Shown one piece after another: positions 942-13,896 of a stretch of 14,430 bases of DNA; the stretch's first letter is position 1; every line of letters starts with the position of its first letter. Both the position numbers and the translations under genes were made by a program. The notes under the pieces are model-generated. The model was not told the DNA's origin. It made no database searches and was given only the letters and a program-made list of their open reading frames with translations. This stretch comes from Eubacteriales bacterium (GTDB lineage: Bacteria; Bacillota; Clostridia; Christensenellales; Aristaeellaceae): NCBI GenBank assembly GCA_031553615.1, contig JAVBLJ010000067.1, positions 1 to 14,430 of the forward strand. The letters run 5' to 3'.

Positions 942-2702
942 TCATTCCTTTCGGCCCGCCTTCAACCGGTTCAGTTCTTGCATCAATGCACCGATCTGCG
1001 CCATCAAGTCGTGTTTCTCGTCCCCCGTAGCGGTGACGATCTCTTGCTTTAGCGCAGTGATGCGCTCCTCCAACCGGTGCCGCCGCACCCGCATCAGGCA
1101 ATCCGATGCAATGCGCAGCGCTTGTTCTTCCTCGCCCTTGAGTTCCGCGCCGAATATCTCGGCAATATCGCGCCGCTCAACGTCGTCGGCAGTGTCTTCC
1201 AATATTGCAGAGGGAGAATCCCCCTCGATTAACCGGCGCAACAGCGCGCGGTGCAATGGTTCTGTGAATTCCACGTCCTCCAGCAGCGACGGTTCAACGC
1301 GCTTAGCGGAGAGCAGGGAGAGCAGCGACCGTTCTGCCTTCAGGTGATCGGGCAACGCGGTGGCCTGCGTCGAGAGCGGATTGCGCCGGGGCACGTAGCT
1401 CTGCTGCGCCGTGACACCCGCCGAGCCGTGGCCAATCTGCTGAATCAGCACATCCCGCGAAAATCCGGTGACCAGGCTCAGGTGCCGCACGTGGTTTTCG
1501 AGCTCCACCGGCTCGCGCACCTTGCGCAGGATGATCGCGCACGCCTTTGCGTACTCCACCCGGCCCGTTTCCTCGCTCAAATCGAAGGATTGCGCCAGAT
1601 GCTCCATGCGATAGACCACGCCGTTTTGCGGCTTAAGCGCCTCAAATGCCGCCACGCCCTTGGTGCGCACAAACTCGTCCGGGTCCTTCGCGTCGGGGAA
1701 GGTGAGCACCTTGGCCGGAACCTCCTCGGCCTCCAGAATATCCAGCGCCCGCAAAATGGCCTGCTGCCCAGCGGAATCGCCATCGTAGGTCACCCAGATT
1801 TCCGGCGCGTAGCGTTTCATGAGCCGCGCCTGTTCCGGGGTAAGCGCCGTGCCCAGCGTAGCCAGCACGCCCTGCACGCCGCGCTGCACCAGCGAAACCA
1901 CGTCCATGTAGCCCTCAACCAGTATGATGCGATGCAGGTTGCGCACCTTGCGCAGCAGGTGGATGGCGTACACGCCCAACCGCTTGTTAAACACCGGCGT
2001 ATCGGGGGTGTTGAGGTACTTGGGCTGCGCGTCACCCATCGCGCGCCCGCCAAAGCCTAATACCTGGCTGTGCGCATTGATGATGGGAAACAGCGCGCGC
2101 TGGCGAAACATGTCGTAGAACCGTTCGTTCTTTTCCACCGTCAACCCGGCCTGTGCCAGCTCGCCGGGCGAGAAGCCCTGGGCGGTCAGCGCGCGGGTCA
2201 AAACCTCCCAGCCCCCGCTGGCCGCGCCCAGACCAAACTGCCGTATGGCGGCGTCGTCCATCCCGCGCCCGTGCAGGTAATCGAGCATCTCCTCACCGTC
2301 CGGGGTCCAAAGCCGCTCGTGGTACCATTGCGCCGCCGCTCTGTTGGCCGCGTAGATTCGCTCCTTGATCGAGCGCGTGCGCTCGTATTGCGGATCGTCC
2401 ACCAGCTCGGGCAGCGGCATGTGTATCCTTTCGGCGATGTGCCGCACCGCCTCCGGAAACTCCAGCCGCTCGATGTCCATCACGAACTGGATGACGCTTC
2501 CCCCAGCCTTGCAGCCAAAGCAATGGTACATCTGGCGATCCGGGTCTACGGTAAAGGAAGCGGTTTTCTCGTTGTGAAACGGGCAAAGGCCCCAATAGCG
2601 GCGACCGTTTTGCTTTAGCACGACGTATTCGGAAACCACGGTGACAATGTCCGCGCGCCCGCGAAGCTCGTCCAGCCATGCGGGAGAGAAGCGCCCAGCC
2701 AA
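942..2702 (-). CDS. dnaG: DNA primase DnaG
   Basis: 586-aa ORF with a TTG start. It has the CHC2 zinc finger [29 protein letters not shown] and the Toprim motif [13 protein letters not shown]. Its stop lies 4 nt upstream of the sigA start, the classic dnaG-sigA arrangement. Confidence 0.95.
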
Positions 2703-2790: not shown

Positions 2791-3795
2791 TCAACGGTTG
2801 TCGAAAGCGTGCGGCAATATCATGCTTTCATAGCATCGCATGGCGTACCGATCGGTCATGCAGGCAACAAAATCGCAGACGCCGCGCGCGGTTCCCTCGT
2901 CCCTACAAATCTCCACATATTCCGCAGGCATGCGTTCCGGTTCGGCTAGGCAGAGCTTCACCAAATCGTCGAGTATATGGGCTACCTTGCGCTCTTCCTC
3001 CATGGCCGCTTGACACATGTACACGCGTTCAAACAGAAAATCCCGCAGCAGGTCGGTGGCCTCCCACACCGGCTCGGACATGGAAACCAAAGGTTTGCCA
3101 TCGCTCACCCGTACCACGTCGGCGATCATGGTGTCGATGCGTTCGCCGTGGGTCTCGCCCAGAACCGCCAAGCAGCGCGGCGGTAGGTCGCTCTGGCGGA
3201 TCAACCCCGCACGAATCGCGTCGTCAATATCGTGGTTGATGTAGGCGATGCGGTCTGCCAGGTGCACGCAACGGCCTTCGAACGTTTGGGGCTGCACCTC
3301 ACCGGAGTGGTGGGCGATACCGTCGCGAACCTCGAAGGTGAGGTTCAGGCCGCGCCCTTCCCCCTCCAGCCGGTCCACCACGCGCAGGCTCTGCGCAAGG
3401 TGGCTGAATCCGCCTTCGATCAGCCTATCGAGCGCGCGCTCGCCTGCGTGCCCAAAGGGGGTATGGCCCAAATCGTGGCCCAATGCAATGGCCTCGGTTA
3501 AATCCTCGTTCAGGTTCATGGCGCGGGAAATGGTGCGTGCGACCTGCGAAACCTCCAGCGTGTGCGTCAGCCGGGTGCGATAGTGATCGCCATCGGGGGC
3601 GAACATCATTTGCGTCTTGTGCTTGAGCCGCCGGAACGCTTTGGAATGCAGAATGCGGTCGCGGTCGCGCTGAAAATCGGTGCGCAGTGAGCAGGGCTCG
3701 ATCGGCCGCTCGCGTCCGCGCGTATCGGCGCTCGGCTTGGCCAATGGCGAAAGCATTTGACGCTCGCGCGCCTCCAGTTGTTCCCGAACCGTCAC
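2791..3795 (-). CDS. dgt: deoxyguanosinetriphosphate triphosphohydrolase-like HD-domain protein
   Basis: 334-aa ORF with a GTG start and a GAGAGGGAGGG Shine-Dalgarno. The HD motif ALGHDLGHTPFGHAGE and the N-terminus FQRDRDRILHSKAFRRLKHKTQ are typical of dGTPase-like proteins. The position immediately upstream of dnaG is typical for Firmicutes. Confidence 0.9.
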   Translation of the reverse strand: MTVREQLEARERQMLSPLAKPSADTRGRERPIEPCSLRTDFQRDRDRILHSKAFRRLKHKTQMMFAPDGDHYRTRLTHTLEVSQVARTISRAMNLNEDLTEAIALGHDLGHTPFGHAGERALDRLIEGGFSHLAQSLRVVDRLEGEGRGLNLTFEVRDGIAHHSGEVQPQTFEGRCVHLADRIAYINHDIDDAIRAGLIRQSDLPPRCLAVLGETHGERIDTMIADVVRVSDGKPLVSMSEPVWEATDLLRDFLFERVYMCQAAMEEERKVAHILDDLVKLCLAEPERMPAEYVEICRDEGTARGVCDFVACMTDRYAMRCYESMILPHAFDNR

Positions 3796-4151
3796 GCGCA
3801 GCCCTCCCTCTCGCCCGTGAAAGCCGTTTGCGAGTTTCCGGCTAACCGTACATGATAATTCGCCCCCCGGCTCATTAATCCCTAGCCATCCGGGAAAATT
3901 TTTATTGAATGTGGTATATCATGTAGATTCGACACAGATGCGCTTGGTTTGTATCCTATTGTATGCCAAATGAAGGAAAAGCTATACGCACACGCATTAT
4001 TGGCGCATATCGCCGCTGAATGCTCCCAAAAAAGAATCCAGAAAGGCGTGGCTGCTTTCAAAGGAAAAGGCGCACGCACCGCGAATCTCTAGGTACGAAG
4101 CACCCTTATGGCGTTCAATCCTGCACACCGAAAACACAGCGGGAGGTCCGT
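3796..4151. promoter_or_regulatory. AT-rich divergent intergenic region; promoters/5'UTRs for the minus-strand dgt-dnaG-sigA operon and for the plus-strand gene at 4152
   Basis: 356 nt of markedly lower GC between divergently oriented genes. It contains several -10/extended -10-like hexamers, for example TGgTATATC near 3925-3935 on plus. No coding frame has protein-like composition. Exact transcription start sites cannot be set from sequence alone. Confidence 0.4.
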
Positions 4152-5204
4152 ATGAGCACGAAGCAGCGCAATCACATGATCCCAAACATTCATCGCCTTG
4201 TAACCAGCGAACTCGGAGAAAACTACTGGTTCAATGGCGGCGCGAAATACGCAATGGAAGCGCTCGGCGAACCCGATTACGACTATTGGTTTTTCGCGGG
4301 ACTGACCGGCGACTTGTTTACGCAGCACTATGCCTATACGAGATCCCTGTGGGATGCCATTGACGGTTATCCGTTAGCGGAAACCCCTCATCGGTTTGTG
4401 AAGGAGCTATTCGGCAAGTGCGGATACGCCGCCGCCTATGTTTCCAAGCGGGAACTCAGGGAGAACACCGAGATGCATCTGAACACGCTGACCGCCTATA
4501 TCGACAAGGGCATCCCCATTATTACCACCATGCACCCGTGCGGCGTATATGTCGGCTATGAGGAATACGGCAAAGTCCTGCTCTACATAACCGGTGATAA
4601 CAGCCAACCGGAACGCATTACGCTGGCGGATGCGATCAGCGGGCAAAGCGCGTTTGAAATGGAGGCCAATACACAGGGCGGATGGATATTTGTCGGCGAG
4701 AAAAAAGAGGCTATCCCGCTTGCCAAGCTGTACCGCGAGACGATTTACTCGATTCCACAATACCATAATGTCAAAACCGACGCGTACTGCTTCGGCCCGG
4801 CGGCTTTCCGCGCATGGGCGGCGGATATAGAGAGCGGCAAGTTTAACGAGATAAAACCAGAGGTATTTGATACCTGGTATCACTACACCAATTATGTATG
4901 CATGCTCGCTACCAACGGGAGCTGTTGCCATGGATTTCTGAAGCGCGCGGAGGAGCTGAATCCAGACATGGGCTTCTTGCGGGAAGTCAGCAGATTGTAT
5001 AAGCGAACCGCTGAGATGTGGGGCGGCGATAACCATCACAACGACGCGGACAGCCTGGAAGCCCTGGGCGGCGGTTTCAACGTCACGCTGGCCACTTTGC
5101 AGGACGTGGGAAAGCGCGGCAAGATTGCGCGGAAAACTCGCGAAATCGCGGTCTGCATGGATCAGGTGCTGGATATCCTGCACGCGAATCCGGCCAAACA
5201 ATAA
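4152..5204 (+). CDS. hypothetical protein (351 aa), function not recognisable from sequence
   Basis: ATG at 4152 is preceded by GGGAGG at 6-nt spacing. The track ORF starting at 4020 has no Shine-Dalgarno and runs through AT-rich promoter DNA. Amino-acid composition is protein-like (W/Y/F-rich, no low complexity), whereas the overlapping minus ORF 4407..5201 is R/A/L-rich antisense junk. GC looks lower than the flanking core genes (judged by eye, not computed). Confidence 0.75.
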   Translation: MSTKQRNHMIPNIHRLVTSELGENYWFNGGAKYAMEALGEPDYDYWFFAGLTGDLFTQHYAYTRSLWDAIDGYPLAETPHRFVKELFGKCGYAAAYVSKRELRENTEMHLNTLTAYIDKGIPIITTMHPCGVYVGYEEYGKVLLYITGDNSQPERITLADAISGQSAFEMEANTQGGWIFVGEKKEAIPLAKLYRETIYSIPQYHNVKTDAYCFGPAAFRAWAADIESGKFNEIKPEVFDTWYHYTNYVCMLATNGSCCHGFLKRAEELNPDMGFLREVSRLYKRTAEMWGGDNHHNDADSLEALGGGFNVTLATLQDVGKRGKIARKTREIAVCMDQVLDILHANPAKQ

Positions 5205-5207
5205 GCT

Positions 5208-5235
5208 GTTTCCCGTTATAGGTTTCCTGTTATAG
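5208..5235. repeat. perfect-register tandem direct repeat, 2 x 14 nt (GTTTCCCGTTATAG / GTTTCCTGTTATAG)
   Basis: Seen directly in sequence, 4 nt after the stop of the 4152..5204 gene and about 135 nt upstream of the WYL operon. The two units differ at one position. Candidate site for a dimeric DNA-binding protein. Confidence 0.6.
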
Positions 5236-5340: not shown

Positions 5341-5350
5341 ATGGTGTAAT
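5341..5350 (+). promoter_or_regulatory. candidate extended -10 element (aTGgTGTAAT) for the WYL-regulator operon; no recognisable -35
   Basis: TGn + TGTAAT (5/6 match to TATAAT) lies 22 nt upstream of the 5372 start. Almost the same 10-mer, ATGGTGTAAAT, recurs upstream of rtcB at 9330..9340. Confidence 0.3.
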
Positions 5351-5371: not shown

Positions 5372-6628
5372 GTGAGGTGTGCCGTGGCTTACAGTGAGCT
5401 GATCAAGAGCTTCGAGAGGATTCGCGACTACATGCGCGAGTTTTATGTGTATGGTTTCAAAAGCCGGGAAGAGATGGGCATCAAGTCGGCACGCGGATAT
5501 GACAACGAGCGGAGACGCATCGAGAGCTGGCTAGGAGACTGCATGGGGTTCCGGCACACACCGGAGGGAAAGAATGTGTTTCTTTCGGTAGACAGCCGAG
5601 GAATCACGCGCAATCCGCTGCATGTAGCATTTCGGGCCAAGAGCTTTACAAGGAACGACATCACGCTGCACTTTCTGCTGCTGGATATGCTTCACGGGAA
5701 TGTCGCACTAACGGCGCAGCAGGCGGCGGATCGGCTGGCTGCGGACTATCTGTGCCGCGCCCAGGACTGCGAGCTACCGGACGAATCCACGGTGCGGAAG
5801 AAACTGCTTGAATATGAGGAGCTTGGGCTGCTGGCAACGCGGACTGAAAATAGGAAACGGCTCTATGCCCGAAGCACAGACGACGTGAAGCTAAACCGGT
5901 GGGCGGACGCCATTGCCTTCTTCGCGGAAGCGGACAGCCTGGGCGTGATCGGCAGCTTCTTGCTGCCGCGACTAGAAAGCATGCCGCATGGTTTCCGCTT
6001 CAAGCATCATTACCTGTTGCGCGTGCTGGAAAGCGAGCTGCTGTTCACCGCGCTGATGGCCATCCGGGAGCGGCGCTACGTGATGCTGTATATGGGCGCA
6101 GGGCAGTTTGAACACAACATCACTTGGCGTGTCACGCCGGTGAAGGTGCTTAGCAGCACGCAGACCGGGCGTTACTATCTGTGCGCCTACAGCCAGCGGC
6201 GCGGCCGGTTGTGCTGCTATAGGATGGATCACATTCGGCACATTGAACCGCTGGATGCCGATCCTGAGTTCGAAGAGCGAAGTGCCCGGTTCGAGCAGGT
6301 CAAGCGCCACCTTTGGGGCGCGGGCATCGGCGGCAACCGCAGCGTGAGTCACCTCGAGATGACCGTGCAGGTGAGCGAGGGTGAAGACTACATTGTACAG
6401 CGGCTGATGCGCGAACGGCGCTGCGGCATCGTGGAGCAGGTGGATGAGACACACTGGCGCTACGTGGTAGACGTGTACGATCCCTATGAGGTCGGGCCGT
6501 GGATACGCACGTTTATCGGTCGCATTACGGCCTTTCAGTGCGACGACGCGGCGGTGGCGGAGCGGTTCCGCTCCGATGTGTGGGCGATGCTTCAGCAGTA
6601 TGGGGGTGACGCGGATGCTGTTCAGTGA
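5372..6628 (+). CDS. WYL-domain transcriptional regulator (wHTH-WYL-WCX architecture with an extra N-terminal domain); first of a PafB/PafC-like pair
   Basis: 418 aa. It has a WYL-type motif GRYYLCAYSQRRGRLCCYRMDHIRHIEPLD, a putative wHTH LTAQQAADRLAADYL...ESTVRKKLLEYEELGLLATR, and a C-terminal extension (WCX-like). The start is ambiguous: GTG 5372 is the longest, GTG 5384 follows GAGGTG, and ATG 5432 is also possible. The minus ORF 5972..6454 is an antisense shadow. Confidence 0.8.
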   Translation: MRCAVAYSELIKSFERIRDYMREFYVYGFKSREEMGIKSARGYDNERRRIESWLGDCMGFRHTPEGKNVFLSVDSRGITRNPLHVAFRAKSFTRNDITLHFLLLDMLHGNVALTAQQAADRLAADYLCRAQDCELPDESTVRKKLLEYEELGLLATRTENRKRLYARSTDDVKLNRWADAIAFFAEADSLGVIGSFLLPRLESMPHGFRFKHHYLLRVLESELLFTALMAIRERRYVMLYMGAGQFEHNITWRVTPVKVLSSTQTGRYYLCAYSQRRGRLCCYRMDHIRHIEPLDADPEFEERSARFEQVKRHLWGAGIGGNRSVSHLEMTVQVSEGEDYIVQRLMRERRCGIVEQVDETHWRYVVDVYDPYEVGPWIRTFIGRITAFQCDDAAVAERFRSDVWAMLQQYGGDADAVQ

Positions 6629-7520
6629 AGTCCACAGCGCTTATTTTCAGGCGGTGGCGCGCATTCTGACGGAGGCCATCGATGCGCCAGTCAGCCCTGG
6701 GCGCATGGACGAGATCGTGCGTGAGACGGCATTTGCGGAAAGCGTGCTGCATGTTGCCCCCGCACTTCGCTCGGGTGAATGGCCGCTCCTGACGCCAGAG
6801 GGGCGAGCGTTGGTTCGGAATATGCCGACGATGCCGCTGACGATGCTCGAAAAGCGCTGGTTGAAAGCGTTGCTGCTGGATCCGCGCGTCGCGCTGTTCG
6901 ATCCGCCATCTGACGGACTAGAGGATATAGAGCCGCTGTTCGATCCGGGCGATGTGTACTGGTTTGACCGTTATCTGGACGGCGATCCGTATGACAACCC
7001 CCAATATATCGCCAACTTCCGTATGGTGCTTCTGGCCCTCCGCGAGCGCCGCAAGCTGCGCATCGTATACACGGGCGCGAAGGGGCGCACGATCCGGGGC
7101 GTGTTTATGCCGGGCAATCTGGAATACTCGCAGAAGGATGACAAGTTCCGGCTGCACACGCTGGGCGGGAAAAGAATCTCGATCCGGCTGTCGACGGTGC
7201 TGGTGTGCGAGCCGGAGGAGCCGTTTAGTCCCGTTGCGTTCCAGCGCACGGAGCCAGGCGAGCAGCACATGCTGGAGATTGAAATCCGTGACGATCGGAA
7301 CGCCATGGAACGCGCGATGCTGCACTTCTCACATCTGAAGAAGGAGGCCGAGCGCGTGGGCGATGATCGCTACCGGATGAAACTCTGGTATGAGCAGGAA
7401 GACGAGACCGAGATGGTGATTCGTGTGCTATCCTTCGGGCCGATGGCGCGGGTGCTTGCTCCTGAGCAGCTTAAGCGGCAGGTCGTCGAACGGCTGGAAA
7501 ATCAAGTAAAGCTGATGTGA
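6615..7520 (+). CDS. WYL-domain protein, second member of the pair (PafC-like), overlapping the upstream gene by 14 nt
   Basis: ATG 6615 is preceded by GGGGGTGA. GTG 6606 is an alternative start. The track ORF from 6486 begins with R/S-rich junk in an alternate frame of the upstream gene. Sequence: MLFSEVHSAYFQAVARILTE..., a WYL-like core TGAKGRTIRGVFMPGNLEYSQKDDKFRLHTLG, and a C-terminal WCX-like domain ...YRMKLWYEQEDETEMVIRVLSFGPMARVLAPEQLKRQVVERL. Confidence 0.8.
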   Translation: MLFSEVHSAYFQAVARILTEAIDAPVSPGRMDEIVRETAFAESVLHVAPALRSGEWPLLTPEGRALVRNMPTMPLTMLEKRWLKALLLDPRVALFDPPSDGLEDIEPLFDPGDVYWFDRYLDGDPYDNPQYIANFRMVLLALRERRKLRIVYTGAKGRTIRGVFMPGNLEYSQKDDKFRLHTLGGKRISIRLSTVLVCEPEEPFSPVAFQRTEPGEQHMLEIEIRDDRNAMERAMLHFSHLKKEAERVGDDRYRMKLWYEQEDETEMVIRVLSFGPMARVLAPEQLKRQVVERLENQVKLM

Positions 7521-7528
7521 TCCATGAG

Positions 7529-7555
7529 CGTTTCCCTTCGGGGAGGCGTTTTTTT
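7529..7555 (+). terminator. Rho-independent terminator of the WYL operon
   Basis: Stem CGTTTCCC / GGGAGGCG (8 bp including 2 G-U pairs) with a UUCG tetraloop (7537-7540), followed by a run of 7 T. It starts 9 nt after the stop codon. Confidence 0.85.
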
Positions 7556-7576
7556 CATCCTCGCAACTTTTTTACC

Positions 7577-7605
7577 ATGACCTTCCATGGCACATTTGAT
7601 ATGAT
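7577..7605 (+). promoter_or_regulatory. candidate sigma-A promoter for the leader-SPFH-rtcB transcript (ATGACC -N17- TG-a-TATGAT)
   Basis: Extended -10 TGaTATGAT at 7597-7605. A -35-like ATGACC lies 17 nt upstream and is flanked by a CCATG...CATGG inverted repeat (7574-7590). It sits just downstream of the terminator. Confidence 0.4.
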
Positions 7606-8037
7606 GCCTTTGTCGCAGAAACCAAGCGTGGCGCTCAGGGACTTCCTCCCGGCGACCTGCGGTGCCCGGCGCGTTGCGCAGAGGGTATTTCGGTGAAGCG
7701 GCGTCGGTATGCATTGCGTGGGTTCGAGTCCCACCCTATCGTATGGATAGGCCAAGCGGTTATGGAATCGCTCGAAAGAGCACGCACCTGTTAAGTGTGA
7801 AGTCAAGGCAAGAAGGGAACCGGCAGAGGGCGCTCCGGCATGGCGAAAAGGGCAGCATACCGCCCACCGCCGTGCAGCGAGGCAAATGCCTTGCCGGGCG
7901 CGATCTTCTTCGGACACCGGCTTGCGGCCAGGGCACGAGCCTCCGCCGCCAGTCAGAGACCGAAGCGCGCGCCCGCCGCGAATGCCGCGTGGAACGCCCC
8001 GCCGCCCCGGTCAATTATCATGAGGAGGGAAAACCAT
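7606..8037 (+). promoter_or_regulatory. long, unusually GC-rich structured 5' leader of the SPFH gene (contains the tRNA-like element listed separately)
   Basis: About 430 nt with no protein-like ORF. The two track ORFs (7662..8081 + and 7555..7917 -) are R/A/P-rich junk. GC is far above that of normal intergenic DNA in this window. There is no T-run, so it reads through to the GAGGAGGG Shine-Dalgarno of the 8038 gene. Confidence 0.45.
7716..7800 (+). ncRNA. tRNA-like RNA element, apparently circularly permuted (T-arm, acceptor-like hairpin, D-arm-like, anticodon-arm-like); candidate cognate RNA of the SPFH/RtcB repair module
   Basis: 7718-7734: GTGGG TTCGAGT CCCAC is a perfect T-arm with the same T-loop as the real tRNA-Trp in this window. 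7735-7751: CCTATC gtatg GATAGG is a 6-bp hairpin. 7755-7772: AGCG gttatggaat CGCT is a 4-bp stem with a GG-containing loop. 7783-7799: a 5-bp stem enclosing the 7-nt loop CTGTTAA (U at position 2, A after the triplet). There is no canonical acceptor 5' strand and no CCA. The boundaries are approximate. Confidence 0.5.
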
Positions 8038-9138
8038 ATGAATATCATTGTAAACGAAAACCAGCGCGCGCTGCTGTTTAAGAACGGACGCTTTGTAAAG
8101 CTGCTGATGCCCGGCAAGCACCGCGCATTGTTTGGCAACTATAGCGTGCAAAAGGTCGAGGTTAAGGACGAGTTCCGCCCGGAGATCGGGCAGCTCAAGA
8201 ACTATGCGAACATGCCTGAGCTAGCAAGCCAACTGGCTACCGTTGAGGTAGGCGATGCGCAGGTGGCATTGCGCTTCGAGGACGGGCGTCTGATGCCCAG
8301 CGCGCTAAAAAGCGGGCTGCACGCGTTCTGGAAGGCGGGTTCTGAGCACACCTTTCAGCTGCTGGACGTAACGGAGCCGGAGATCAATGACGTCCCGCCC
8401 GTGCACCTCATGAGCATCCCTTACATGGTACAGCGCGTGGAGGTGTTGCCCGGGCAAAAGGCATTGCTGATGCGCGACGGCGAGTTTGTGAAGCTGCTTT
8501 GTGAAGGCACGCACTTTTACTGGAGGCAAGAAGTATCCGGCATCAAGATAAGCGCGCAGGTGGTGGACACGAAGCTTATGCAGATGAGCGTGCAAGGCCA
8601 GGAAGTGCTCTCGCTGGATAAGGTGGCGGTGCGCGCGAACTTCATCTGCCGCTACCGGATCACCGACTGTGTTCGCGCCATCACCGAAATCGCGGATTAT
8701 GAGGAGCAGTTGCATGTCGCGGCGCAACTTATCTTACGGGAGTACATCGGCCAGCACAGGCTGGATGAACTGCTGGAGAATCGCGAGCAGCTAGGCCAGT
8801 TTGTATTGCAGGGCATAAAGAAGCGTGAGTCCGAATTCTTCATCGAGGTGGTGGACGCGGGCGTTCGCGACATCATTCTGCCCGGCGAGATCCGCGAGAT
8901 CATGAACACCGTGCTGGTTGCCGAAAAAAAGGCGCAGGCCAACGTGATCACTCGTCGCGAAGAGGTTGCCTCTACCCGCAGCTTGCTGAACACTGCAAAG
9001 CTGATGGATGAGAACGCAACGCTGATGAAGCTCAAAGAAATGGAATACCTGGAAAAAATCTGCGAAAACGTGGGCTCCATCACCGTCCATGGCGGCAGCG
9101 ATCTACTGGGTCAGCTGGCTACAATGCTGAAAGCGTAA
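8038..9138 (+). CDS. SPFH/Band-7 (slipin/stomatin-like) domain protein, apparently soluble (no N-terminal TM segment)
   Basis: ATG 8038 follows GAGGAGGG with a 7-nt spacer. The track start at 7840 adds R/A-rich junk. The C-terminal two thirds match SPFH cores (...VRDIILPGEIREIMNTVLVAEKKAQANVITRREEVASTRSLLNTAKLMDENATLMKLKEMEYLEKI; compare QmcA ...IKDIDPPKEIQEAMEKQMKAERDKRA...). The N-terminus carries the SPFH strand motif twice (NQRALLFKNGRFVKLLMPG and GQKALLMRDGEFVKLLCEG). No hydrophobic stretch is long enough for a membrane anchor. Confidence 0.88.
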   Translation: MNIIVNENQRALLFKNGRFVKLLMPGKHRALFGNYSVQKVEVKDEFRPEIGQLKNYANMPELASQLATVEVGDAQVALRFEDGRLMPSALKSGLHAFWKAGSEHTFQLLDVTEPEINDVPPVHLMSIPYMVQRVEVLPGQKALLMRDGEFVKLLCEGTHFYWRQEVSGIKISAQVVDTKLMQMSVQGQEVLSLDKVAVRANFICRYRITDCVRAITEIADYEEQLHVAAQLILREYIGQHRLDELLENREQLGQFVLQGIKKRESEFFIEVVDAGVRDIILPGEIREIMNTVLVAEKKAQANVITRREEVASTRSLLNTAKLMDENATLMKLKEMEYLEKICENVGSITVHGGSDLLGQLATMLKA

Positions 9139-9329
9139 TGATGCCGACTGGAAGCGAAGCCATTATGAAACAATGAATCACAAAATCCTTCACGGATCGA
9201 GCGGAAAGAGGGCGTCAAAACCCTGCGCACTGCGGAGTCTGGAAGCAGGGCGCGGGTTTCGCCTCCCCGGACAGCGAGTACGTCGTCCGATTCGTCTAGG
9301 CCCGCTCCGCGCTGGATTACATGAAGCTG

Positions 9330-9340
9330 ATGGTGTAAAT
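9330..9340 (+). promoter_or_regulatory. candidate internal extended -10 promoter element upstream of rtcB (aTGgTGTAAAT), no recognisable -35
   Basis: Same 10-mer as at 5341-5350. It lies about 50 nt upstream of the rtcB ATG. There is no terminator between the SPFH gene and rtcB, so read-through is also expected. Confidence 0.3.
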
Positions 9341-9391: not shown

Positions 9392-10594
9392 ATGATCGAG
9401 ATCAAGGGAACGCACAACATCGCGTATGCTTTTACAAACGAAGTCGAGCCCAATGCCGCCGCGCAGATCCGAGACGTGTGCGATCAGCCGCATTTTGAAG
9501 GCTGCAAAATCCGGATCATGCCGGATGTTCACGCGGGCAAGGGCTGTACCATCGGCACCACAATGACGCTCACGGATAAGGTGGTGCCCAACATGGTGGG
9601 CGTTGACATCGGCTGCGGCATGGAGACGGTGCGCCTGCGCGAGCAGGAGATCGACTTCGTCAAACTGGACGGGGCGATCCGCGCGCATGTACCCTGTGGC
9701 CGCGAAGTGCGCGAACGGGAGCATCCGTACAACACGCAGATCGACCTGAGCAAGCTGCGCTGCGGCGGAGAATTGCAGCTCGGTCGCGCGCGCACGAGCA
9801 TCGGCACGCTAGGCGGCGGCAATCACTTCATCGAGGTGGATCGGGACGACGAGGGCAATCTGTACCTGGTGGTACACTCAGGCAGCCGCCACCTGGGCAC
9901 CGAGATCGCCGACTGGTATCAGCAGGAAGGGTTCCGCACGCTGTGCGGCAATGCCAAGGTGCAGATTGACGAACTGATCGCCGAGCTGAAACGCACCGGT
10001 CGGCGCAAGGAAATTCAGCAGCGCGTGCGGGAGACCAAGGCATTTAACACGCCGCCGGTGCCCGAAAGCCTGGCCTATGTAGAGGGCCGGCTGTTTGATG
10101 ATTATATCCACGACATGCGCATCACCCAGGCATTCGCGGCGCTCAACCGCAAGGCTATGGTGGATGTGATCCTCACCGAAATGGGTCTGCATAGCGAAGA
10201 TGCCTTCACTACCATTCACAACTATATCGACACCGAATCGATGATTCTTCGGAAGGGCGCGGTGTCGGCGCGCGCGGGCGAGAGGCTGTTGATCCCAATC
10301 AACATGCGCGATGGTTCCTTGCTGTGCACCGGCCTGGGGAACAACGACTGGAACCAGTCCGCGCCTCACGGAGCCGGGCGGCTAATGAGCCGCATGGAGG
10401 CCAACCGCAGGCTATCGCTTGAGCAGTTTAAGGACGAGATGCGGGGCATTTATTCCACTTCCGTCGGGAAAGACACCCTGGACGAATCGCCCATGGCCTA
10501 CAAAGGCATGGACGCAATCATATGCAACATCGGCCCGACGGCGCGCATTGAGAAGATCATCCGACCCGTGTACAATTTTAAGGCGTCGGTATAA
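9392..10594 (+). CDS. rtcB: RNA ligase RtcB (3'-phosphate/2',3'-cyclic-phosphate to 5'-OH RNA ligase)
   Basis: 400 aa from ATG 9392 (MIEIKGTHNIAYAF...). The track start at 9362 is a TTG 10 codons upstream. The protein carries the full set of RtcB metal/GTP-site signatures: RIMPDVHAGKG, VGVDIGCGM, GGGNHFIEV, VVHSGSRHLG, HNYID, ILRKGA, PINMRDG and APHGAGR. Confidence 0.95.
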   Translation: MIEIKGTHNIAYAFTNEVEPNAAAQIRDVCDQPHFEGCKIRIMPDVHAGKGCTIGTTMTLTDKVVPNMVGVDIGCGMETVRLREQEIDFVKLDGAIRAHVPCGREVREREHPYNTQIDLSKLRCGGELQLGRARTSIGTLGGGNHFIEVDRDDEGNLYLVVHSGSRHLGTEIADWYQQEGFRTLCGNAKVQIDELIAELKRTGRRKEIQQRVRETKAFNTPPVPESLAYVEGRLFDDYIHDMRITQAFAALNRKAMVDVILTEMGLHSEDAFTTIHNYIDTESMILRKGAVSARAGERLLIPINMRDGSLLCTGLGNNDWNQSAPHGAGRLMSRMEANRRLSLEQFKDEMRGIYSTSVGKDTLDESPMAYKGMDAIICNIGPTARIEKIIRPVYNFKASV

Positions 10595-10640: not shown

Positions 10641-10650
10641 GGTGTTGGAC

Positions 10651-11628
10651 ATGAAATTCTTTACGCCCGAATGGGATTACGCTTCCCGGCGAACATCATT
10701 GAGCCTCGGACTGCACCCGGATAAGCGCGCCAAGACCTTCGATGAATCGTTTTACAACAGGGTATACCAGCAGGCGTATCAGCGCGAATATCGAATGATG
10801 AAGAGCGTTCACGAAGTCTCCCATGCGGAGTTGATCATGAGGATGTACAAGCCTTTATATGACGCGGACGAAATGAGCCGGGAGGACTATGAAACCGCGG
10901 TGGAAGATGCGCGCCGTCTGGACGCGGAAAAGCCTCCGTTTTGCGAGGAGGCCGTAATCAGCCGATGCCAAACGCAGCTAAGAAATTCGCAGAGGAGCTA
11001 TCAGCAGCTTCTGCCTTCGGAGATTCTCTCTCGGGTGGCGGACATCCGCGTACTCGCGGCGGGCGTGGCATCGCCGGAAGTGTACAAGACGATCAAAGCA
11101 TTCACGGCGGAAAATGACCGCCTGTCCGATCAAGTGCACGAGGCGCACTCAAAACAGCTTCAATTGATTTGGGACAATATCCCGAAGGAGATTCAGGAAA
11201 ATCTGTTTTCACTGCATGATGCAACACTGGAACGTATGGAACTGGGCGATCGCACACTGACCCTGTTCCTGATGCAGGATGGTGAAAATCACTACCGGGT
11301 TCACAGCATCACCTTTGAAGATTGTGATATCCTGCACATCGACGAACCGGTGGCCGGCGGATGGTGGAAATACGTCGAGTTCGACATCCTCGAGGACGGG
11401 CGATATGAGATAGGCATTCTGTTCACCGGCGCGGTGCAGAATGAAGACGACGATTGGTTTCACCAAACCATCGAAGTGCGCTCACCCAGGATTTCCTTTG
11501 TTCGTTATGAACTTACAGAGGATGAGATCAAAGCGCAACAAGCGATGTCAGAACGGGTAGAACGGCTCGAGCAAAAAGGGCTGGTGACGCGCCTTGCTCC
11601 CCTCGTTCGCGATGAAACGAAGGAATAG
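10651..11628 (+). CDS. hypothetical acidic protein (325 aa), probably co-transcribed with rtcB; possibly DUF4085-like (low certainty)
   Basis: ATG 10651 follows AAGGAAGGTG. The track ORF begins at a GTG 3 codons earlier. Sequence: MKFFTPEWDYASRR... No enzymatic motif was recognised, and the composition is protein-like. The N-terminal MK(F/Y)FT.EW pattern is, as I recall it, typical of the DUF4085 family. That is memory, not a search result. Confidence 0.8.
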   Translation: MKFFTPEWDYASRRTSLSLGLHPDKRAKTFDESFYNRVYQQAYQREYRMMKSVHEVSHAELIMRMYKPLYDADEMSREDYETAVEDARRLDAEKPPFCEEAVISRCQTQLRNSQRSYQQLLPSEILSRVADIRVLAAGVASPEVYKTIKAFTAENDRLSDQVHEAHSKQLQLIWDNIPKEIQENLFSLHDATLERMELGDRTLTLFLMQDGENHYRVHSITFEDCDILHIDEPVAGGWWKYVEFDILEDGRYEIGILFTGAVQNEDDDWFHQTIEVRSPRISFVRYELTEDEIKAQQAMSERVERLEQKGLVTRLAPLVRDETKE

Positions 11629-11705: not shown

Positions 11706-11748
11706 TTGACATCCTCAATACCATATGTTATAAATAACATATGGTATT
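11706..11748 (+). promoter_or_regulatory. sigma-A promoter (TTGACA -N17- TATAAAT) with an overlapping PadR-type operator, a perfect 15-bp inverted repeat containing ATGT-N8-ACAT
   Basis: TTGACA is at 11706-11711 and TATAAAT at 11729-11735 with exact 17-nt spacing. The palindrome AATACCATATGTTAT aa ATAACATATGGTATT spans 11717-11748 and covers the -10 and the expected transcription start. Confidence 0.7.
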
Positions 11749-11764
11749 GTTGGAGGTGATTGGA

Positions 11765-12700
11765 TTGACGATCGAATGCGCGATTTTAGGGCTGTTATGT
11801 CGCGAACCCTTGGCTGGATATGATCTGAAAAAGCGCATGCAAAATGCCCCGGAAATGCCTTGGTCGGGTAACAACAACCAAATCTATAAAGTCCTGAGCG
11901 CGTTGCTTGATGAAGGATTGTTGGAGAGCGAGCTGCAGCCTCAGGATGGCCTGCCCGCCAGAAAGGTGTACACAATCACCGCATTGGGCCGCACCACACT
12001 GAAGGAATGGCTAACCGCAGCACCTGAAATGATGGAACTCAAGAGCCCATTCCTCGCGCAGTTATCCGTTGCGAGCATCATTGGCGCACAGCAAGTGGAT
12101 GTGCTGCTGCATCAGTACGAGCGTCAACTTATGGCGCAGTTGCATACCCTTCCCGCCCTGTGCGATTCGGACGATTTCGATTCGGTATTGCGCTTGCTGG
12201 TTCAGGACAGCATAAAAACCAGCTATGAATCACAGCTTGGATGGGTACAACGCGCACGCGATACGCTTAGACCATTTGCGCAACAGGAACACACCGAAGC
12301 GCAAAATGTGCAGGAACACGAGGAAAATCCAGCGATGCCTTTTGACGTACTTGAGAAAAACGGTGAGAAGTACCTACATTACCGCGCTACGGCTTCCTGT
12401 CCGGAAACACTGATTCCCACACAGTTTGTCGCGGATTGTGTCGAGCAGTGTGTAAACCGCGTGATGCTGGAAGAATGTGCGCTGCCCGAGTCATTTTTCC
12501 GGCTGCGCACCGTGCTGGCGGGCGAGGTTTTACAAAAGCTTGAGCAGTACCGCGTGAGGGTCGCGCTTGTGTTAAGCCAATCGGGTGCCAAGGGAAAATT
12601 CAAGGATTTGCTGATTGAAGCAAATCGCGGAGGTCGGTTTCGCTCGTTTGCCAGCACGGAACAAGCGGAGAAATGGCTGACTGGGGAGGATGTCCAATGA
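11765..12700 (+). CDS. PadR-family transcriptional regulator with a long C-terminal extension
   Basis: The N-terminal domain ...ECAILGLLCREPLAGYDLKKRMQNAPEMPWSGNNNQIYKVLSALLDEGLLESELQPQDGLPARKVYTITALGRTTLKEWL is a canonical PadR wHTH. I chose the TTG at 11765 because GGAGGTGA lies 5 nt upstream. The in-frame ATG at 11741 (the track start) has no Shine-Dalgarno and lies inside the operator palindrome. It would fit only as a leaderless start. Confidence 0.85.
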   Translation: MTIECAILGLLCREPLAGYDLKKRMQNAPEMPWSGNNNQIYKVLSALLDEGLLESELQPQDGLPARKVYTITALGRTTLKEWLTAAPEMMELKSPFLAQLSVASIIGAQQVDVLLHQYERQLMAQLHTLPALCDSDDFDSVLRLLVQDSIKTSYESQLGWVQRARDTLRPFAQQEHTEAQNVQEHEENPAMPFDVLEKNGEKYLHYRATASCPETLIPTQFVADCVEQCVNRVMLEECALPESFFRLRTVLAGEVLQKLEQYRVRVALVLSQSGAKGKFKDLLIEANRGGRFRSFASTEQAEKWLTGEDVQ

Positions 12701-13533
12701 ATACAGCGTTTCAGTCGAAGGAAAATCGGGAGGCTGTACTTGGTTATTACGACAACATGATGGGAATGCTGCGGATACCTTATGAACGTTTGGAAATCGG
12801 TACGCGATATGGCCATACGTCGCTAATCGCGGCTGGCGATGCCCATAAACCGCCGCTGATTCTTTTGCACGGCAGCAGCATGAACGCGGCGATGTGGATC
12901 GGCGATATTCCGAAATACACGCAGGATTTTCGCGTGTACGCACCCGATCTCCCGGGCGAACCGGGAAGGAGCGACGAGCGTCAGCTGCCATTCGACACCG
13001 ACGATTACGCAAACTGGTTGCATGAGATAATGAACATGTTGCACATCGACGTAGTGTCCCTATGCGGCGCTTCCTTGGGCGGATGGCTGGCGACGAAGTT
13101 CGCTTCCCTGCATCCTGATCGCGTAGCGAAGCTGGCGCTGCTGTGCCCGGCAGGGATTGGTGGCCAAAACCATGCATTCAAGGAGATCGCAATGCGTCTA
13201 CTTCCTCAAGGCGAGGCGGGTGTGAACGAACTGTTCCGCCAAATTAACGGAGGCGACGAGATTCCGGAAGTGATGTTGAGCTATCAGAAACTGATCGCAT
13301 TCTGCTTCAATGCGCGGCAGGAACCCATCCCGTTATTTACCGATGAGGAGCTTATGAGGCTCGCGATGTCCGGTAGCGTCTTTCTCGGCGGACAGGACAT
13401 CATGCTGAACTCAAACGAAACTGCCGCGCGAGTGCGCCGATTGCTGCCTCACTTTGAGGTGGTAGAACTGCCAACTTTGGGGCATTCGCTTGCGGGGCAG
13501 GGGGCTTCTGTGTTGGAGTTTCTTGCTAAGTAA
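12697..13533 (+). CDS. alpha/beta-fold hydrolase
   Basis: ATG 12697 overlaps the PadR stop (ATGA) and follows GGGGAGGA. HG motif LILLHGSS, nucleophile elbow GASLGG, and a C-terminal His region (LGHSL). The track start at 12673 is less likely because it has no Shine-Dalgarno. Confidence 0.88.
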   Translation: MNTAFQSKENREAVLGYYDNMMGMLRIPYERLEIGTRYGHTSLIAAGDAHKPPLILLHGSSMNAAMWIGDIPKYTQDFRVYAPDLPGEPGRSDERQLPFDTDDYANWLHEIMNMLHIDVVSLCGASLGGWLATKFASLHPDRVAKLALLCPAGIGGQNHAFKEIAMRLLPQGEAGVNELFRQINGGDEIPEVMLSYQKLIAFCFNARQEPIPLFTDEELMRLAMSGSVFLGGQDIMLNSNETAARVRRLLPHFEVVELPTLGHSLAGQGASVLEFLAK

Positions 13534-13822: not shown

Positions 13823-13896
13823 TGGCAGGGGCAGAAGGACTCGAACCCTCAACAAAGGTTTTGGAGACCCACGTGTTACCATTACACCATGCCCCT
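13823..13896 (-). tRNA. trnW: tRNA-Trp (anticodon CCA), CCA 3' end encoded
   Basis: Reverse complement: AGGGGCA TG GTGT AATGGTA ACAC G TGGGT CTCCAAA ACCTT TGTTG GAGGG TTCGAGT CCTTC TGCCCCT G CCA. The 7-bp acceptor is identical to Bacillus tRNA-Trp. The D-arm and the T-arm (GG-TTCGAGT-CC) are canonical. The anticodon loop is CU-CCA-AA. Confidence 0.93.

What the first reader, a model, noticed from the sequence alone, without database searches (positions are those of the whole stretch)
5372..7520. Overlapping pair of WYL-domain regulators (PafB/PafC-like) placed immediately upstream of the RNA-repair module
Two adjacent WYL proteins with C-terminal WCX-like extensions overlap by 14 nt, so they are translationally coupled. 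This is the organisation of the actinobacterial PafBC heterodimer, whose WYL domains sense single-stranded nucleic acid and which activates promoters that have a -10 but no -35. Here both their own upstream region and the rtcB upstream region carry the same extended -10-like 10-mer ATGGTGTAA(A)T with no recognisable -35. That is the promoter style WYL activators work on. In proteobacteria rtcB is controlled by RtcR, a CARF-domain sensor of damaged tRNA fragments. This organism shows no RtcR, and a WYL pair would be a plausible analogous sensor. WYL regulators also guard defence islands (BrxR and CapW types), so the pair could instead control the upstream unknown gene.
Basis: partly seen in the sequence, partly recalled or inferred. 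Interest (0 to 1): 0.65.

Follow-up and report, generated by a model that had tools for sequence, protein, structure and literature searches.

The report
Paired WYL regulators of RtcB operon
Two overlapping genes encode a conserved pair of WYL-domain DNA-binding sensor proteins. In hundreds of gut and anaerobe genomes this pair sits beside an almost invariant promoter that drives a tRNA-like RNA and the RtcB RNA-repair ligase, so it is very probably the missing regulator of RNA repair in these bacteria.

Summary
WYL1 (5384-6628, 414 aa) and WYL2 (6615-7520, 301 aa) overlap by 14 nt. Both score as WYL+WCX proteins, and their models match DriD, PafB/PafC, BrxR and CapW.

- In 80 related genome loci the two genes are always adjacent, and the start and stop overlap in 77 of 78.
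- RtcB lies within 10 kb in 30 of the 36 loci that have full flanks.
- Natural WYL1-WYL2 fusion proteins exist.

ATGGTGTAA is not conserved. The copy at 5341 is an ordinary extended -10. The copy at 9330 lies at the end of a decayed RlaP pseudogene.

The real signal is an almost invariant element, GTTCGCAACTTTTTTTCCRTGATTTTCC, followed by N11 and TATnaT (window 7559-7605). It lies next to the pair in 65 loci and always points at the repair operon. That operon starts with a covariation-supported ~430-nt tRNA-like RNA, then SPFH, an RlaP remnant and RtcB.

Still inferred: whether the pair activates or represses, and what the ligand is (damaged RNA?).

The general idea that WYL factors control RNA repair was already predicted by Aravind's group. 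This is therefore a well-defined new member of a known kind, not a new kind.

The parts
5342..5350 (+). Probable extended -10 (TGgTGTAAT) of the WYL operon's own promoter.
   Evidence: It aligns with TATGGTATAAT in L001. No -35 is found. It is not a family-wide motif.
5384..6628 (+). WYL1, 414 aa. It has a very conserved N-terminal domain (aa 1-90), a winged HTH (about aa 90-165), a WYL domain (aa 223-292) and a WCX-like C-terminal domain (about aa 320-405).
   Evidence: Pfam WYL. PADLOC WYL model, 2.3e-10. Alignment A1 fixes the start. The AF2 model matches PafC 9fnd_Y (E 4e-11), DriD and PafB in Foldseek. The N-terminal domain always sits at the N-terminus, in 653 clusters.
6615..7520 (+). 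WYL2, 301 aa. It has a helical N-terminal domain (possibly a winged HTH, aa 3-66), a divergent WYL domain (aa 129-203) and a WCX domain (aa 217-300). Its start overlaps the WYL1 stop by 14 nt.
   Evidence: Pfam WCX. PADLOC WYL model, 7.3e-10. AF2 model with pLDDT 79.6. Foldseek matches DriD (E 5e-9), PafBC, BrxR and CapW. The overlap is conserved in 77 of 78 loci.
7526..7556 (+). Intrinsic terminator of the WYL operon: an 11-bp stem followed by a T-run.
   Evidence: Terminator scan.
7559..7586 (+). Conserved upstream promoter element CCTCGCAACTTTTTTACCATGACCTTCC. The family consensus is GTTCGCAACTTTTTTTCCRTGATTTTCC. It includes the -35-like hexamer ATGACC at 7577-7582. This is the predicted binding site of the WYL pair.
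   Evidence: An exact or nearly exact copy lies next to the pair in 65 of 80 loci, always pointing to the repair operon. It is also present in Synergistales loci.
7597..7605 (+). TG-extended -10 (TGaTATGAT) of the repair-operon promoter.
   Evidence: Promoter scan. The -10 starts 39 nt after the first T of the motif's TCGCAAC core (T1, the reference point used below) in 57 of 65 instances.
7612..8020 (+). Structured non-coding leader RNA. Domain 1 is tRNA-like: helix 7614-7618/7657-7661, hairpin 7662-7688, T-arm 7718-7734 and an acceptor-like hairpin 7735-7751. Domain 2 is a long hairpin, 7884-7984. The ends of the RNA are inferred.
   Evidence: RNAalifold and pair counts. Domain 1: 95% of cells paired, 11 of 25 pairs compensatory, 0 of 500 shuffles as good. 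Domain 2: 82% paired, 28 of 34 pairs compensatory, 0 of 500. There is a partial YrlA match. A T-loop motif sits at the same place in most loci.
8038..9138 (+). SPFH/Band-7 protein, a predicted scaffold of the repair module.
   Evidence: Pfam Band_7, E 4.4e-31. An orthologue lies in the same position in 10 loci.
9196..9329 (+). Decayed remnant of an RlaP nucleotidyltransferase gene, with a frameshift and an in-frame stop.
   Evidence: tblastn with the RlaP of L041. An intact RlaP lies between SPFH and RtcB in L003. blastn shows conservation of this stretch.
9392..10594 (+). RtcB RNA ligase.
   Evidence: Pfam RtcB, E 2.4e-59. NCBIfam RtcB family models also match.

Best explanation
WYL1 and WYL2 are two very diverged paralogues of the HTH-WYL-WCX type. 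They are made in a fixed ratio from overlapping genes and work as one heteromeric transcription factor dedicated to the neighbouring RNA-repair operon.

Proposed binding site. The complex binds the non-palindromic, nearly invariant element GTTCGCAAC-T7-CC-RTGATTTTCC (window 7559-7586). This element spans about -60 to -30 of a sigma-A-type promoter whose -10 is at 7600-7605.

Target transcript. That promoter drives one transcript: a ~430-nt tRNA-like structured RNA, SPFH, a dead RlaP remnant and RtcB.

Proposed signal. By analogy with DriD, PafBC and CapW, whose WYL domains bind single-stranded nucleic acid, and with RtcR, the sensor of the proteobacterial rtcBA operon, the WYL domains would sense nucleic-acid debris. 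The most likely ligand is broken RNA such as cleaved tRNA or the operon's own tRNA-like RNA. Binding would switch the promoter on.

My best guess is an activator acting from a site that overlaps the -35 (about 55%). The alternative is a repressor released by the ligand (about 40%).

Shown: domain families, gene coupling, natural fusions, synteny with RtcB modules, the conserved promoter element with fixed geometry, and the structured RNA.

Inferred: that the pair binds that element, the direction of control, and the ligand.
For: Family and fold:
- Pfam and PADLOC hits and family-wide scans.
- Foldseek top hits for both models are DriD, PafB/PafC, CapW and BrxR.
- A profile search of PDB sequences gives PafB and PafC as best, though weak, hits.

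Pairing:
- WYL2 follows WYL1 in 79 of 80 loci; the remaining locus is cut off.
- Start and stop overlap in 77 of 78 loci (14 nt in 44, 11 nt in 19).
- Single-chain WYL1-linker-WYL2 proteins exist: P0289, P0298, P0337, P0367 and P0379.

Linkage to RNA repair:
- RtcB is within 10 kb in 55 of 80 loci, and in 30 of the 36 loci with at least 5 kb on both sides.
- The gene between the pair and RtcB is either SPFH or a DUF2828+DUF7788/vWA protein.
- The RtcB-less loci L006, L036, L041 and L018 still have the DUF2828 protein, and L041 also has RlaP.
- Synergistales loci have the same layout.

Cis element:
- There are 66 instances next to the pair: 44 just after the WYL2 stop, and 22 upstream of WYL1 on the opposite strand, usually about 50-140 nt away and up to about 2.2 kb. 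All are oriented toward the repair genes.
- The -10 lies at a fixed offset.
- Extra copies occur only inside such loci.
- The element is asymmetric, which fits a heterodimer.

Separate transcription units: a terminator lies between WYL2 and the element.

Literature:
- RtcR senses tRNA fragments (PMC7790460).
- CARF and WYL transcription factors are proposed to sense cyclic-phosphate RNA, and some to regulate RNA repair (PMC9503650).
Against: - No experiment or binding prediction links the pair to the element. The element is equally well described as simply the promoter of RtcB operons, and another factor could read it.
- No Pfam HTH profile matches WYL2. The WYL1 model is poor (pLDDT 63.8, N-terminus below 50).
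- The T-tract plus a good -10 could make the promoter strong on its own, which would favour a repressor.
- About 9 loci with enough sequence have the pair but neither the element nor RtcB nearby.
- All solved WYL transcription-factor ligands are ssDNA, not RNA.
Confidence: 0.6

Rival explanations
1. The pair is a ligand-released repressor of the BrxR/CapW type. It sits on the -60 to -30 element and blocks an intrinsically strong promoter (T-tract UP element plus a near-consensus -10) until damaged nucleic acid binds the WYL domains.
For: - BrxR and CapW are among the structural matches.
- The conserved block covers the -35 hexamer and an A/T tract that could act as an UP element.
- In 22 divergent loci the element lies upstream of WYL1 on the opposite strand, within about 140 nt in most of them. 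This is typical of auto-repressed regulators.
Against: - BrxR and CapW operators are inverted repeats bound by homodimers. This element is asymmetric.
- The -35 hexamer itself is weak (RTGATT, 3 of 6), which is more typical of activator-dependent promoters.
- The best structural matches are the activators DriD and PafBC.
Confidence: 0.3
2. The two proteins are not transcription factors. They are RNA-binding subunits or chaperones of the repair particle, comparable to the WYL1 accessory protein of Cas13d. They would hold the tRNA-like RNA or substrates for SPFH/Ro-like scaffolds and RtcB.
For: - The pair co-occurs with tRNA-like or Y-like RNAs in nearly every locus.
- WYL domains can bind ssRNA (WYL1 of Ruminococcus; from my own knowledge).
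- The crystal structure 6oaw, a CRISPR Cas-related protein, is among the matches.
- The WYL1 N-terminal domain (invariant RRR-ESW) has no assigned function.
Against: - WYL1 has a clear winged-HTH module, which is even duplicated or triplicated in some relatives.
- The pair forms its own transcription unit with its own terminator, often divergent from the repair genes.
- An invariant DNA element lies beside it.
Confidence: 0.07
3. The pair is a PafBC orthologue controlling a DNA-damage regulon, or a guard of the upstream unknown gene or a defence island. On this view its position next to rtcB is incidental.
For: - PafB and PafC are the best PDB sequence hits.
- A few loci have defence genes nearby: BrxC/D and TerB in L018, McrBC in L030.
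Against: - The PDB hits are weak (E 6e-4) and cover only the WYL domain.
- There is no pup-proteasome context and no RecA-NDp-type motif.
- The upstream gene, DnaG, the dGTPase, DUF4085 and PadR are absent from all 80 loci, whereas RtcB modules recur.
Confidence: 0.03

Closest known systems
PafBC (actinobacterial heterodimeric WYL activator of the DNA-damage response; PDB 6sj9, 7p5x, 9fnd)
   Same: - Two adjacent paralogous HTH-WYL-WCX genes.
- Naturally fused versions exist in some lineages.
- It is among the top structural matches and the best sequence matches in the PDB.
- It controls a nucleic-acid repair response.
   Different: - Not orthologous: only the WYL domain aligns, at E about 1e-3.
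- No pafA/proteasome context.
- The target is an RNA-repair operon, not a DNA-repair regulon.
- The promoter element is different. It lies at -60 to -30 with a -35-like hexamer, not 8 nt upstream of a -10 without a -35.
- WYL1 carries an extra 90-aa N-terminal domain.
DriD (Caulobacter WYL activator bound to ssDNA; PDB 8tp8, 8tpk, 9pfq)
   Same: - Best Foldseek match of WYL2 (E 5e-9) and second best of WYL1.
- HTH-WYL-WCX architecture.
- A damage-signal-dependent activator.
   Different: DriD is a homodimer on a pseudo-palindromic site and senses ssDNA in an SOS-independent DNA-damage response.
RtcR (CARF-AAA+ sigma-54 activator of rtcBA in proteobacteria)
   Same: It holds the same place in the pathway: a nucleic-acid-sensing regulator encoded beside rtcB, often next to Ro/Y-RNA genes. 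It is activated by tRNA fragments (PMC7790460).
   Different: The protein is unrelated (CARF plus a sigma-54 enhancer-binding ATPase). Here there is a sigma-A-type promoter and there are no CARF or AAA+ domains.
RtcB repair modules with Band-7/SPFH plus 'b7a-tRNA', or with Ro-like proteins plus Y RNAs (Burroughs and Aravind 2016, as summarised in bioRxiv 10.1101/312249)
   Same: The downstream operon matches this description: a tRNA-like RNA, SPFH, an RlaP remnant and RtcB. Sister loci have Y-like RNAs, a DUF2828-vWA protein, RtcB and RlaP.
   Different: - I could not read that paper. I therefore cannot say whether it lists this WYL pair, the promoter element or the second RNA domain.
- Later papers from the same group say only that some WYL transcription factors regulate RNA-repair pathways (PMC9503650).
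BrxR / CapW (WYL repressors of BREX and CBASS)
   Same: Same fold. A regulator encoded next to the conflict or repair system it controls.
   Different: These are homodimeric repressors with inverted-repeat operators. This pair is linked to defence genes in only a few loci.

Membership tests
WYL-domain transcription factors (HTH-WYL-WCX) | WYL (Sm-like SH3 barrel) domain detectable by profile | tested here: met
   WYL1: Pfam WYL at E 3.5e-5, above the cut-off. Both proteins hit PADLOC WYL model PDLC01652 at about 1e-10. Family-wide counts are 20/20 and 14/20.
WYL-domain transcription factors (HTH-WYL-WCX) | C-terminal WCX extension | tested here: met
   WYL2: Pfam WCX at E 7.4e-6, and 18/20 in the family. 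WYL1: 5/20 by profile, and the model has the matching beta-alpha C-terminal domain at aa 322-405.
WYL-domain transcription factors (HTH-WYL-WCX) | N-terminal winged helix-turn-helix | tested here: inconclusive
   WYL1: the model shows a wHTH at aa 90-165. There are weak, scattered Pfam wHTH hits (PaaX, MarR_2, HTH_20), Foldseek partial hits to HlyU, NolR and MecI, and the module is repeated in P0015 and P0035. WYL2: three helices plus a short hairpin in the model, but no HTH profile hit.
PafBC | Two adjacent or fused paralogous WYL proteins that form a heterodimer | tested here: inconclusive
   Adjacency, overlap and natural fusions are shown. Physical dimerisation could not be tested with these tools.
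PafBC | Orthology to PafB/PafC and location in the pup-proteasome (pafABC) locus of Actinobacteria | tested here: not met
   Only the WYL domain aligns (E 6e-4 to 0.02). The hosts are Clostridia and Synergistota, and the neighbours are RNA-repair genes.
PafBC | Target promoters carry the RecA-NDp motif close to the -10 and lack a -35 | tested here: not met
   The conserved target promoter has a different element spanning about -60 to -30, with RTGATT at a 17-nt spacing from TATnaT.
RtcR-type regulators | CARF sensor plus AAA+ sigma-54 activator domain plus HTH | tested here: not met
   No such domains are found in either protein. The analogy is functional only.
RtcB / SPFH (Band-7) / tRNA-like RNA repair module | RtcB ligase, SPFH protein and a tRNA-like RNA encoded together | tested here: met
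   Pfam RtcB and Band_7. The tRNA-like T-arm and hairpins show covariation. The same order is seen in 10 other loci.
BrxR / CapW defence-island repressors | A single gene forming a homodimer, an inverted-repeat operator, and adjacency to BREX, CBASS or another defence system | tested here: not met
   The genes are always paired, the element is asymmetric, and defence genes appear in only a few loci.

The most novel reading that the evidence does not exclude
The tRNA-like RNAs at the head of the operon could be sentinels. Anticodon nucleases or other ribotoxins would cut them like real tRNAs. The resulting fragments would be the ligand read by the WYL heterodimer, which would then induce the RtcB machinery. 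In some genomes it would also induce spare genuine tRNA genes that carry the same promoter element: tRNA-Arg(UCU) in L075 and tRNA-Asp in L071. That would be a self-baited RNA-damage alarm, and the first WYL transcription factor shown to read RNA rather than ssDNA.
Probability: 0.15. Interest if true: 0.8.

Novelty: new member of a known kind. Interest (0 to 1): 0.6.

Why it matters
How RtcB repair operons are switched on is known only for proteobacteria, where RtcR does it. This locus gives a concrete candidate for Clostridia and Synergistota, which are abundant gut anaerobes. The candidate comes with a defined about 45-bp promoter element, a likely heterodimer and cultured hosts such as Oscillibacter valericigenes, Dysosmobacter segnis, Flavonifractor and Anaerovorax, so the hypothesis can be tested directly.

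It would also extend WYL sensors from DNA damage and phage defence to RNA damage. In addition, it ties the poorly understood SPFH or Ro-like scaffolds and their tRNA-like RNAs to a single regulon.

Tried and rejected
- Rfam and ARAGORN on the window: only tRNA-Trp was found. Nothing in the 7520-8037 region reached a gathering threshold, and there was only a weak partial YrlA hit.
- ATGGTGTAA as a shared operator: rejected.
- Half-site GTTCGCAAC upstream of WYL1 (autoregulation in this window): matches are at chance level and none lies there.
- Inverted repeats around the element in the window: none.
- Upstream unknown gene, DUF4085, PadR-DUF4180 and the hydrolase as conserved partners: no hit in any of the 80 loci.
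- NCBIfam: no family for either WYL protein.
- WYL1 against WYL2 profile comparison: only the WYL domain aligns, at E 0.0024, so they are not recent duplicates.
- Reading Burroughs and Aravind 2016: the paper is not held.
- Literature searches on WYL with RtcB, RNA repair, Y RNA, DUF2828 and RlaP: no paper describes this pair.
- Scan of viral contigs for the element: 2 hits. One (L085) carries the whole module and is probably host DNA. The other has no associated module.
- ECF-sigma reading of the element: considered and dropped. The spacing to any CGT-type -10 does not fit, and a sigma-A -10 sits at a fixed offset.
Full report
**1. What is in the window.**
ORF listing and profile searches give this order:
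- DnaG (942-2702, minus strand)
- a dGTPase-like HD protein (2791-3795, minus strand)
- an unknown protein (4020/4152-5204)
- WYL1 (5384-6628)
- WYL2 (6615-7520)
- SPFH/Band-7 (8038-9138)
- RtcB (9392-10594)
- DUF4085 (10642-11628)
- PadR-DUF4180 (11741-12700)
- an alpha/beta hydrolase (12673-13533)
- tRNA-Trp (13823-13896, minus strand)

**2.
The stop of WYL1 (TGA 6626-6628) and the ATG of WYL2 (6615, preceded by GGGGGTGA) overlap by 14 nt. Homologues all begin MAYSELIK, so the true start of WYL1 is GTG 5384, not 5372.

Pfam gives WYL for WYL1 and WCX for WYL2, both above the curated cut-offs. A PADLOC model covering WYL plus the C-terminal extension hits both at about 1e-10. Across 20 diverse relatives of each protein, WYL is found in 20/20 WYL1 relatives, and WCX in 18/20 and WYL in 14/20 WYL2 relatives.

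AlphaFold models were searched against the PDB.
- WYL2 (pLDDT 79.6) matches DriD, PafB/PafC, fused PafBC, BrxR and CapW over the full length, with E down to 5e-9.
- WYL1 (pLDDT 63.8) matches PafC (E 4e-11), DriD, PafB, CapW and BrxR, and its winged-HTH part matches HlyU, NolR and MecI.
- Profile searches of PDB sequences find only PafB and PafC, weakly and only over the WYL domain (E 6e-4 to 0.02).

The two proteins are therefore members of the HTH-WYL-WCX superfamily but not PafBC orthologues. They align with each other only in the WYL domain (E 0.0024).

WYL1 has an extra, extremely conserved 90-residue N-terminal domain with invariant RRR-ESW. This domain is found only at the N-terminus of such proteins, in 653 50%-identity clusters.

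**3. The pair is a conserved unit.**
Each protein has more than 5000 relatives at about 50% identity over its full length. In 80 genome loci retrieved with the WYL1 profile, WYL2 follows WYL1 in every locus where sequence allows. The source genomes include:
- Oscillospiraceae, Ruminococcus, Lachnospiraceae and Butyricicoccus;
- Peptococcaceae, Anaerovorax, Solobacterium and Family XIII;
- a 'Xenobia' MAG.

Start and stop overlap by 14 nt in 44 loci, 11 nt in 19, 1 nt in 10 and 4 nt in 4. Only one locus has a gap. Synergistales contigs show the same 14-nt overlap.

Several lineages encode single polypeptides of 756-855 aa made of WYL1, a low-complexity linker and WYL2 (P0289, P0298, P0337, P0367, P0379). 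This parallels the naturally fused PafBC of Arthrobacter (6sj9). It is good indirect evidence that the two proteins act as one complex.

**4. The pair is linked to RNA repair, not to its left-hand neighbours.**
tblastn with all window proteins finds RtcB within 10 kb in 55 of 80 loci, and in 30 of the 36 loci that have at least 5 kb on both sides. RtcB lies either downstream on the same strand or upstream and divergent.

The gene between the pair and RtcB is one of two kinds:
- SPFH, in the window and 10 loci;
- a protein of about 490 aa with DUF2828 and DUF7788/vWA domains, in most other loci.

RlaP often follows RtcB. Four RtcB-less loci still carry the DUF2828 protein, and one of them (L041) has RlaP.

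The unknown upstream gene, DnaG, the dGTPase, DUF4085, PadR and the hydrolase (apart from one weak hit far from the pair) are not found near the pair in the 80 loci.

**5. The real cis-element.**
The intergenic regions were compared across loci. They share an almost invariant sequence:
tgaGTTCGCAACTTTTTTTCCatGATTttcc - N11 - ggTAtnaT.

- The 16-mer TCGCAACTTTTTTTCC is matched with no mismatch in most loci.
- There are 66 instances next to the pair. Of these, 44 lie 9-128 nt after the WYL2 stop. The other 22 lie upstream of WYL1 on the opposite strand, usually about 50-140 nt away and up to about 2.2 kb.
- All of them point at the repair genes.
- The -10 hexamer starts exactly 39 nt after T1 (the first T of TCGCAAC) in 57 of 65 instances. 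RTGATT therefore sits at the -35 position with a 17-nt spacer, and the invariant block covers about -60 to -30.

In the window the element is CCTCGCAACTTTTTTACCATGACCTTCC (7559-7586), with TG-TATGAT at 7597-7605. It lies after a separate terminator (7526-7556).

The element also occurs in Synergistales loci. It is asymmetric, as expected for a heterodimer of unlike subunits.

In many co-oriented loci an upstream inverted copy turns GAGTTCGCAAC plus the T-run into the terminator hairpin of the WYL operon. Divergent loci keep the element without that partner, so the conserved unit is the promoter element itself.

Extra copies occur only inside such loci:
- before a second gene and RtcB in L070;
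- before and after RtcB in L069;
- before a genuine tRNA-Arg(UCU) in L075;
- before a Y-like RNA plus tRNA-Asp in L071.

**6.
ATGGTGTAA occurs three times in the window. The third copy is in the D-arm of tRNA-Trp.
- The copy at 5341 aligns with TATGGTATAAT in the closest relative, L001, so it is an ordinary TG-extended -10 for the WYL operon.
- The copy at 9330 directly follows a frameshifted remnant of RlaP with an in-frame stop (9196-9329). RlaP is intact between SPFH and RtcB in L003.
- The 9-mer is absent from equivalent sites in all 80 loci.

It is therefore not a shared WYL operator, and rtcB in this window has no conserved promoter of its own. It is most simply read as co-transcribed from 7605 onward.

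**7. The RNA.**
All loci have a tRNA T-loop (GGTTCGAnTCC) 100-750 nt after the element. ARAGORN and Rfam call tRNA-like genes there in several loci.

In the window the ~430 nt between the -10 and the SPFH start form two conserved domains.
- Domain 1 consists of a hairpin (7662-7688), a T-arm (7718-7734) and an adjoining acceptor-like hairpin (7735-7751), followed by a D-loop-like CCAGUGGUU motif. In six leaders 95% of cells are paired, against 30-51% when the partners are slid. Eleven of 25 pairs are compensatory, and 0 of 500 shuffles do as well. The order T-arm then closed hairpin is that of the YrlA model, which gives a weak partial hit.
- Domain 2 (7884-7984) is a long hairpin. In ten leaders 28 of 34 pairs are compensatory and 82% of cells are paired, against 33-44% when slid, with 0 of 500 shuffles as good.

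This matches the 'Band-7-associated tRNA' predicted by Burroughs and Aravind, as summarised in bioRxiv 10.1101/312249. I could not check whether domain 2 is described there.

**8. Mechanism.**
Shown:
- the domain families and the conserved gene coupling;
- the natural fusions;
- synteny with RtcB modules;
- an invariant promoter element of fixed geometry beside the pair;
- separate transcription units;
- a structured RNA at the head of the operon.

Inferred:
- the heteromer binds that element;
- its WYL domain or domains read a nucleic-acid damage signal;
- it thereby controls the repair operon.

Known WYL factors include activators (PafBC, DriD) and repressors (BrxR, CapW). The weak -35 and the best structural matches favour activation. 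The T-tract, the coverage of the -35 and the divergent arrangement leave repression open. The ligand is unknown. RNA fragments are attractive by analogy with RtcR (PMC7790460) and with statements from Aravind's group (PMC9503650), but every solved WYL transcription-factor ligand is ssDNA.

**9. Novelty.**
The idea that WYL transcription factors regulate some RNA-repair pathways is already in the literature as a computational prediction (PMC9503650 and PMC7824862, both citing Burroughs and Aravind 2016). I found no paper that describes or tests this pair.

As far as I could check, these points are new:
- the obligate two-gene or fused nature of the regulator;
- its extra N-terminal domain;
- the invariant promoter element;
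- the inclusion of genuine tRNA genes under that element;
- the second RNA domain.

I file it as a new member of a known kind, with above-average interest because it is so directly testable.

Noticed in passing
window 7884-7984: A second, long hairpin domain lies in the SPFH leader RNA. It has conserved unpaired motifs (GGAUACCG, CCAGAG, CUCAAG). In ten SPFH-type loci 28 of 34 pairs are compensatory. It matches no Rfam family and may be an undescribed RNA element specific to SPFH-type repair operons.
   Followed up: partly
window 9196-9329: A decayed remnant of an RlaP (PF10127) nucleotidyltransferase gene lies between SPFH and RtcB, with a frameshift and an in-frame stop. The gene is intact at this position in L003, and it follows RtcB in many other loci.
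   Followed up: yes
L075:15353-15502; L071:13426-13636: The WYL-associated promoter element also precedes a genuine tRNA-Arg(UCU) with encoded CCA in L075. In L071 it precedes a Y-like RNA followed by tRNA-Asp. This suggests that spare tRNAs belong to the same regulon.
   Followed up: partly
P0289, P0298, P0337, P0367, P0379 (proteins): These are natural single-chain fusions of WYL1, a low-complexity linker and WYL2 (756-855 aa).
   Followed up: yes
P0015 and P0035: The winged-HTH module of WYL1 (about aa 90-165) is triplicated in P0015 and duplicated in P0035.
   Followed up: no
L015, L017, L031, L040, L042, L058, L059, L064, L072, L079 and other loci, just after WYL2: In co-oriented loci an inverted copy upstream makes GAGTTCGCAAC plus the T7 tract the 3' half of the WYL operon's terminator hairpin. 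One sequence thus serves as both terminator and promoter element. The window instead has a separate terminator at 7526-7556.
   Followed up: partly
loci L004-L066 of DUF2828 type, for example L020:9228-9540 (minus strand): One to three tandem Y-RNA-like units lie ahead of the DUF2828-vWA gene. Each consists of AAAGGCACC-ACAGCAA, a tRNA-like core and GGTGCCTTGT. None reaches the Rfam YrlA gathering score, although several hit the tRNA model.
   Followed up: partly
window 5208-5235: A perfect-register tandem duplication of a 14-mer (GTTTCCCGTTATAG / GTTTCCTGTTATAG) lies 4 nt after the stop of the unknown gene. It is not conserved in the closest relative, L001, and its function is unknown.
   Followed up: partly
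window 13882-13890 (minus strand), 5341-5349, 9330-9338: The exact 9-mer ATGGTGTAA occurs three times in 14 kb. The contexts are unrelated: the tRNA-Trp D-arm, a -10 box and the edge of a pseudogene. This is more than chance predicts, and I have no common explanation.
   Followed up: partly
window 4020-5204 and 10642-11628: The unknown protein upstream of the pair has no Pfam, NCBIfam or PADLOC hit. The DUF4085 protein lies downstream of RtcB. Neither is found near the pair in any related locus, so the flanks of the module are variable.
   Followed up: partly
L085 (IMG/VR contig): A contig classed as viral carries the whole module: the WYL pair, the promoter element, RtcB and RlaP. It may be host DNA or a prophage border.
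   Followed up: no
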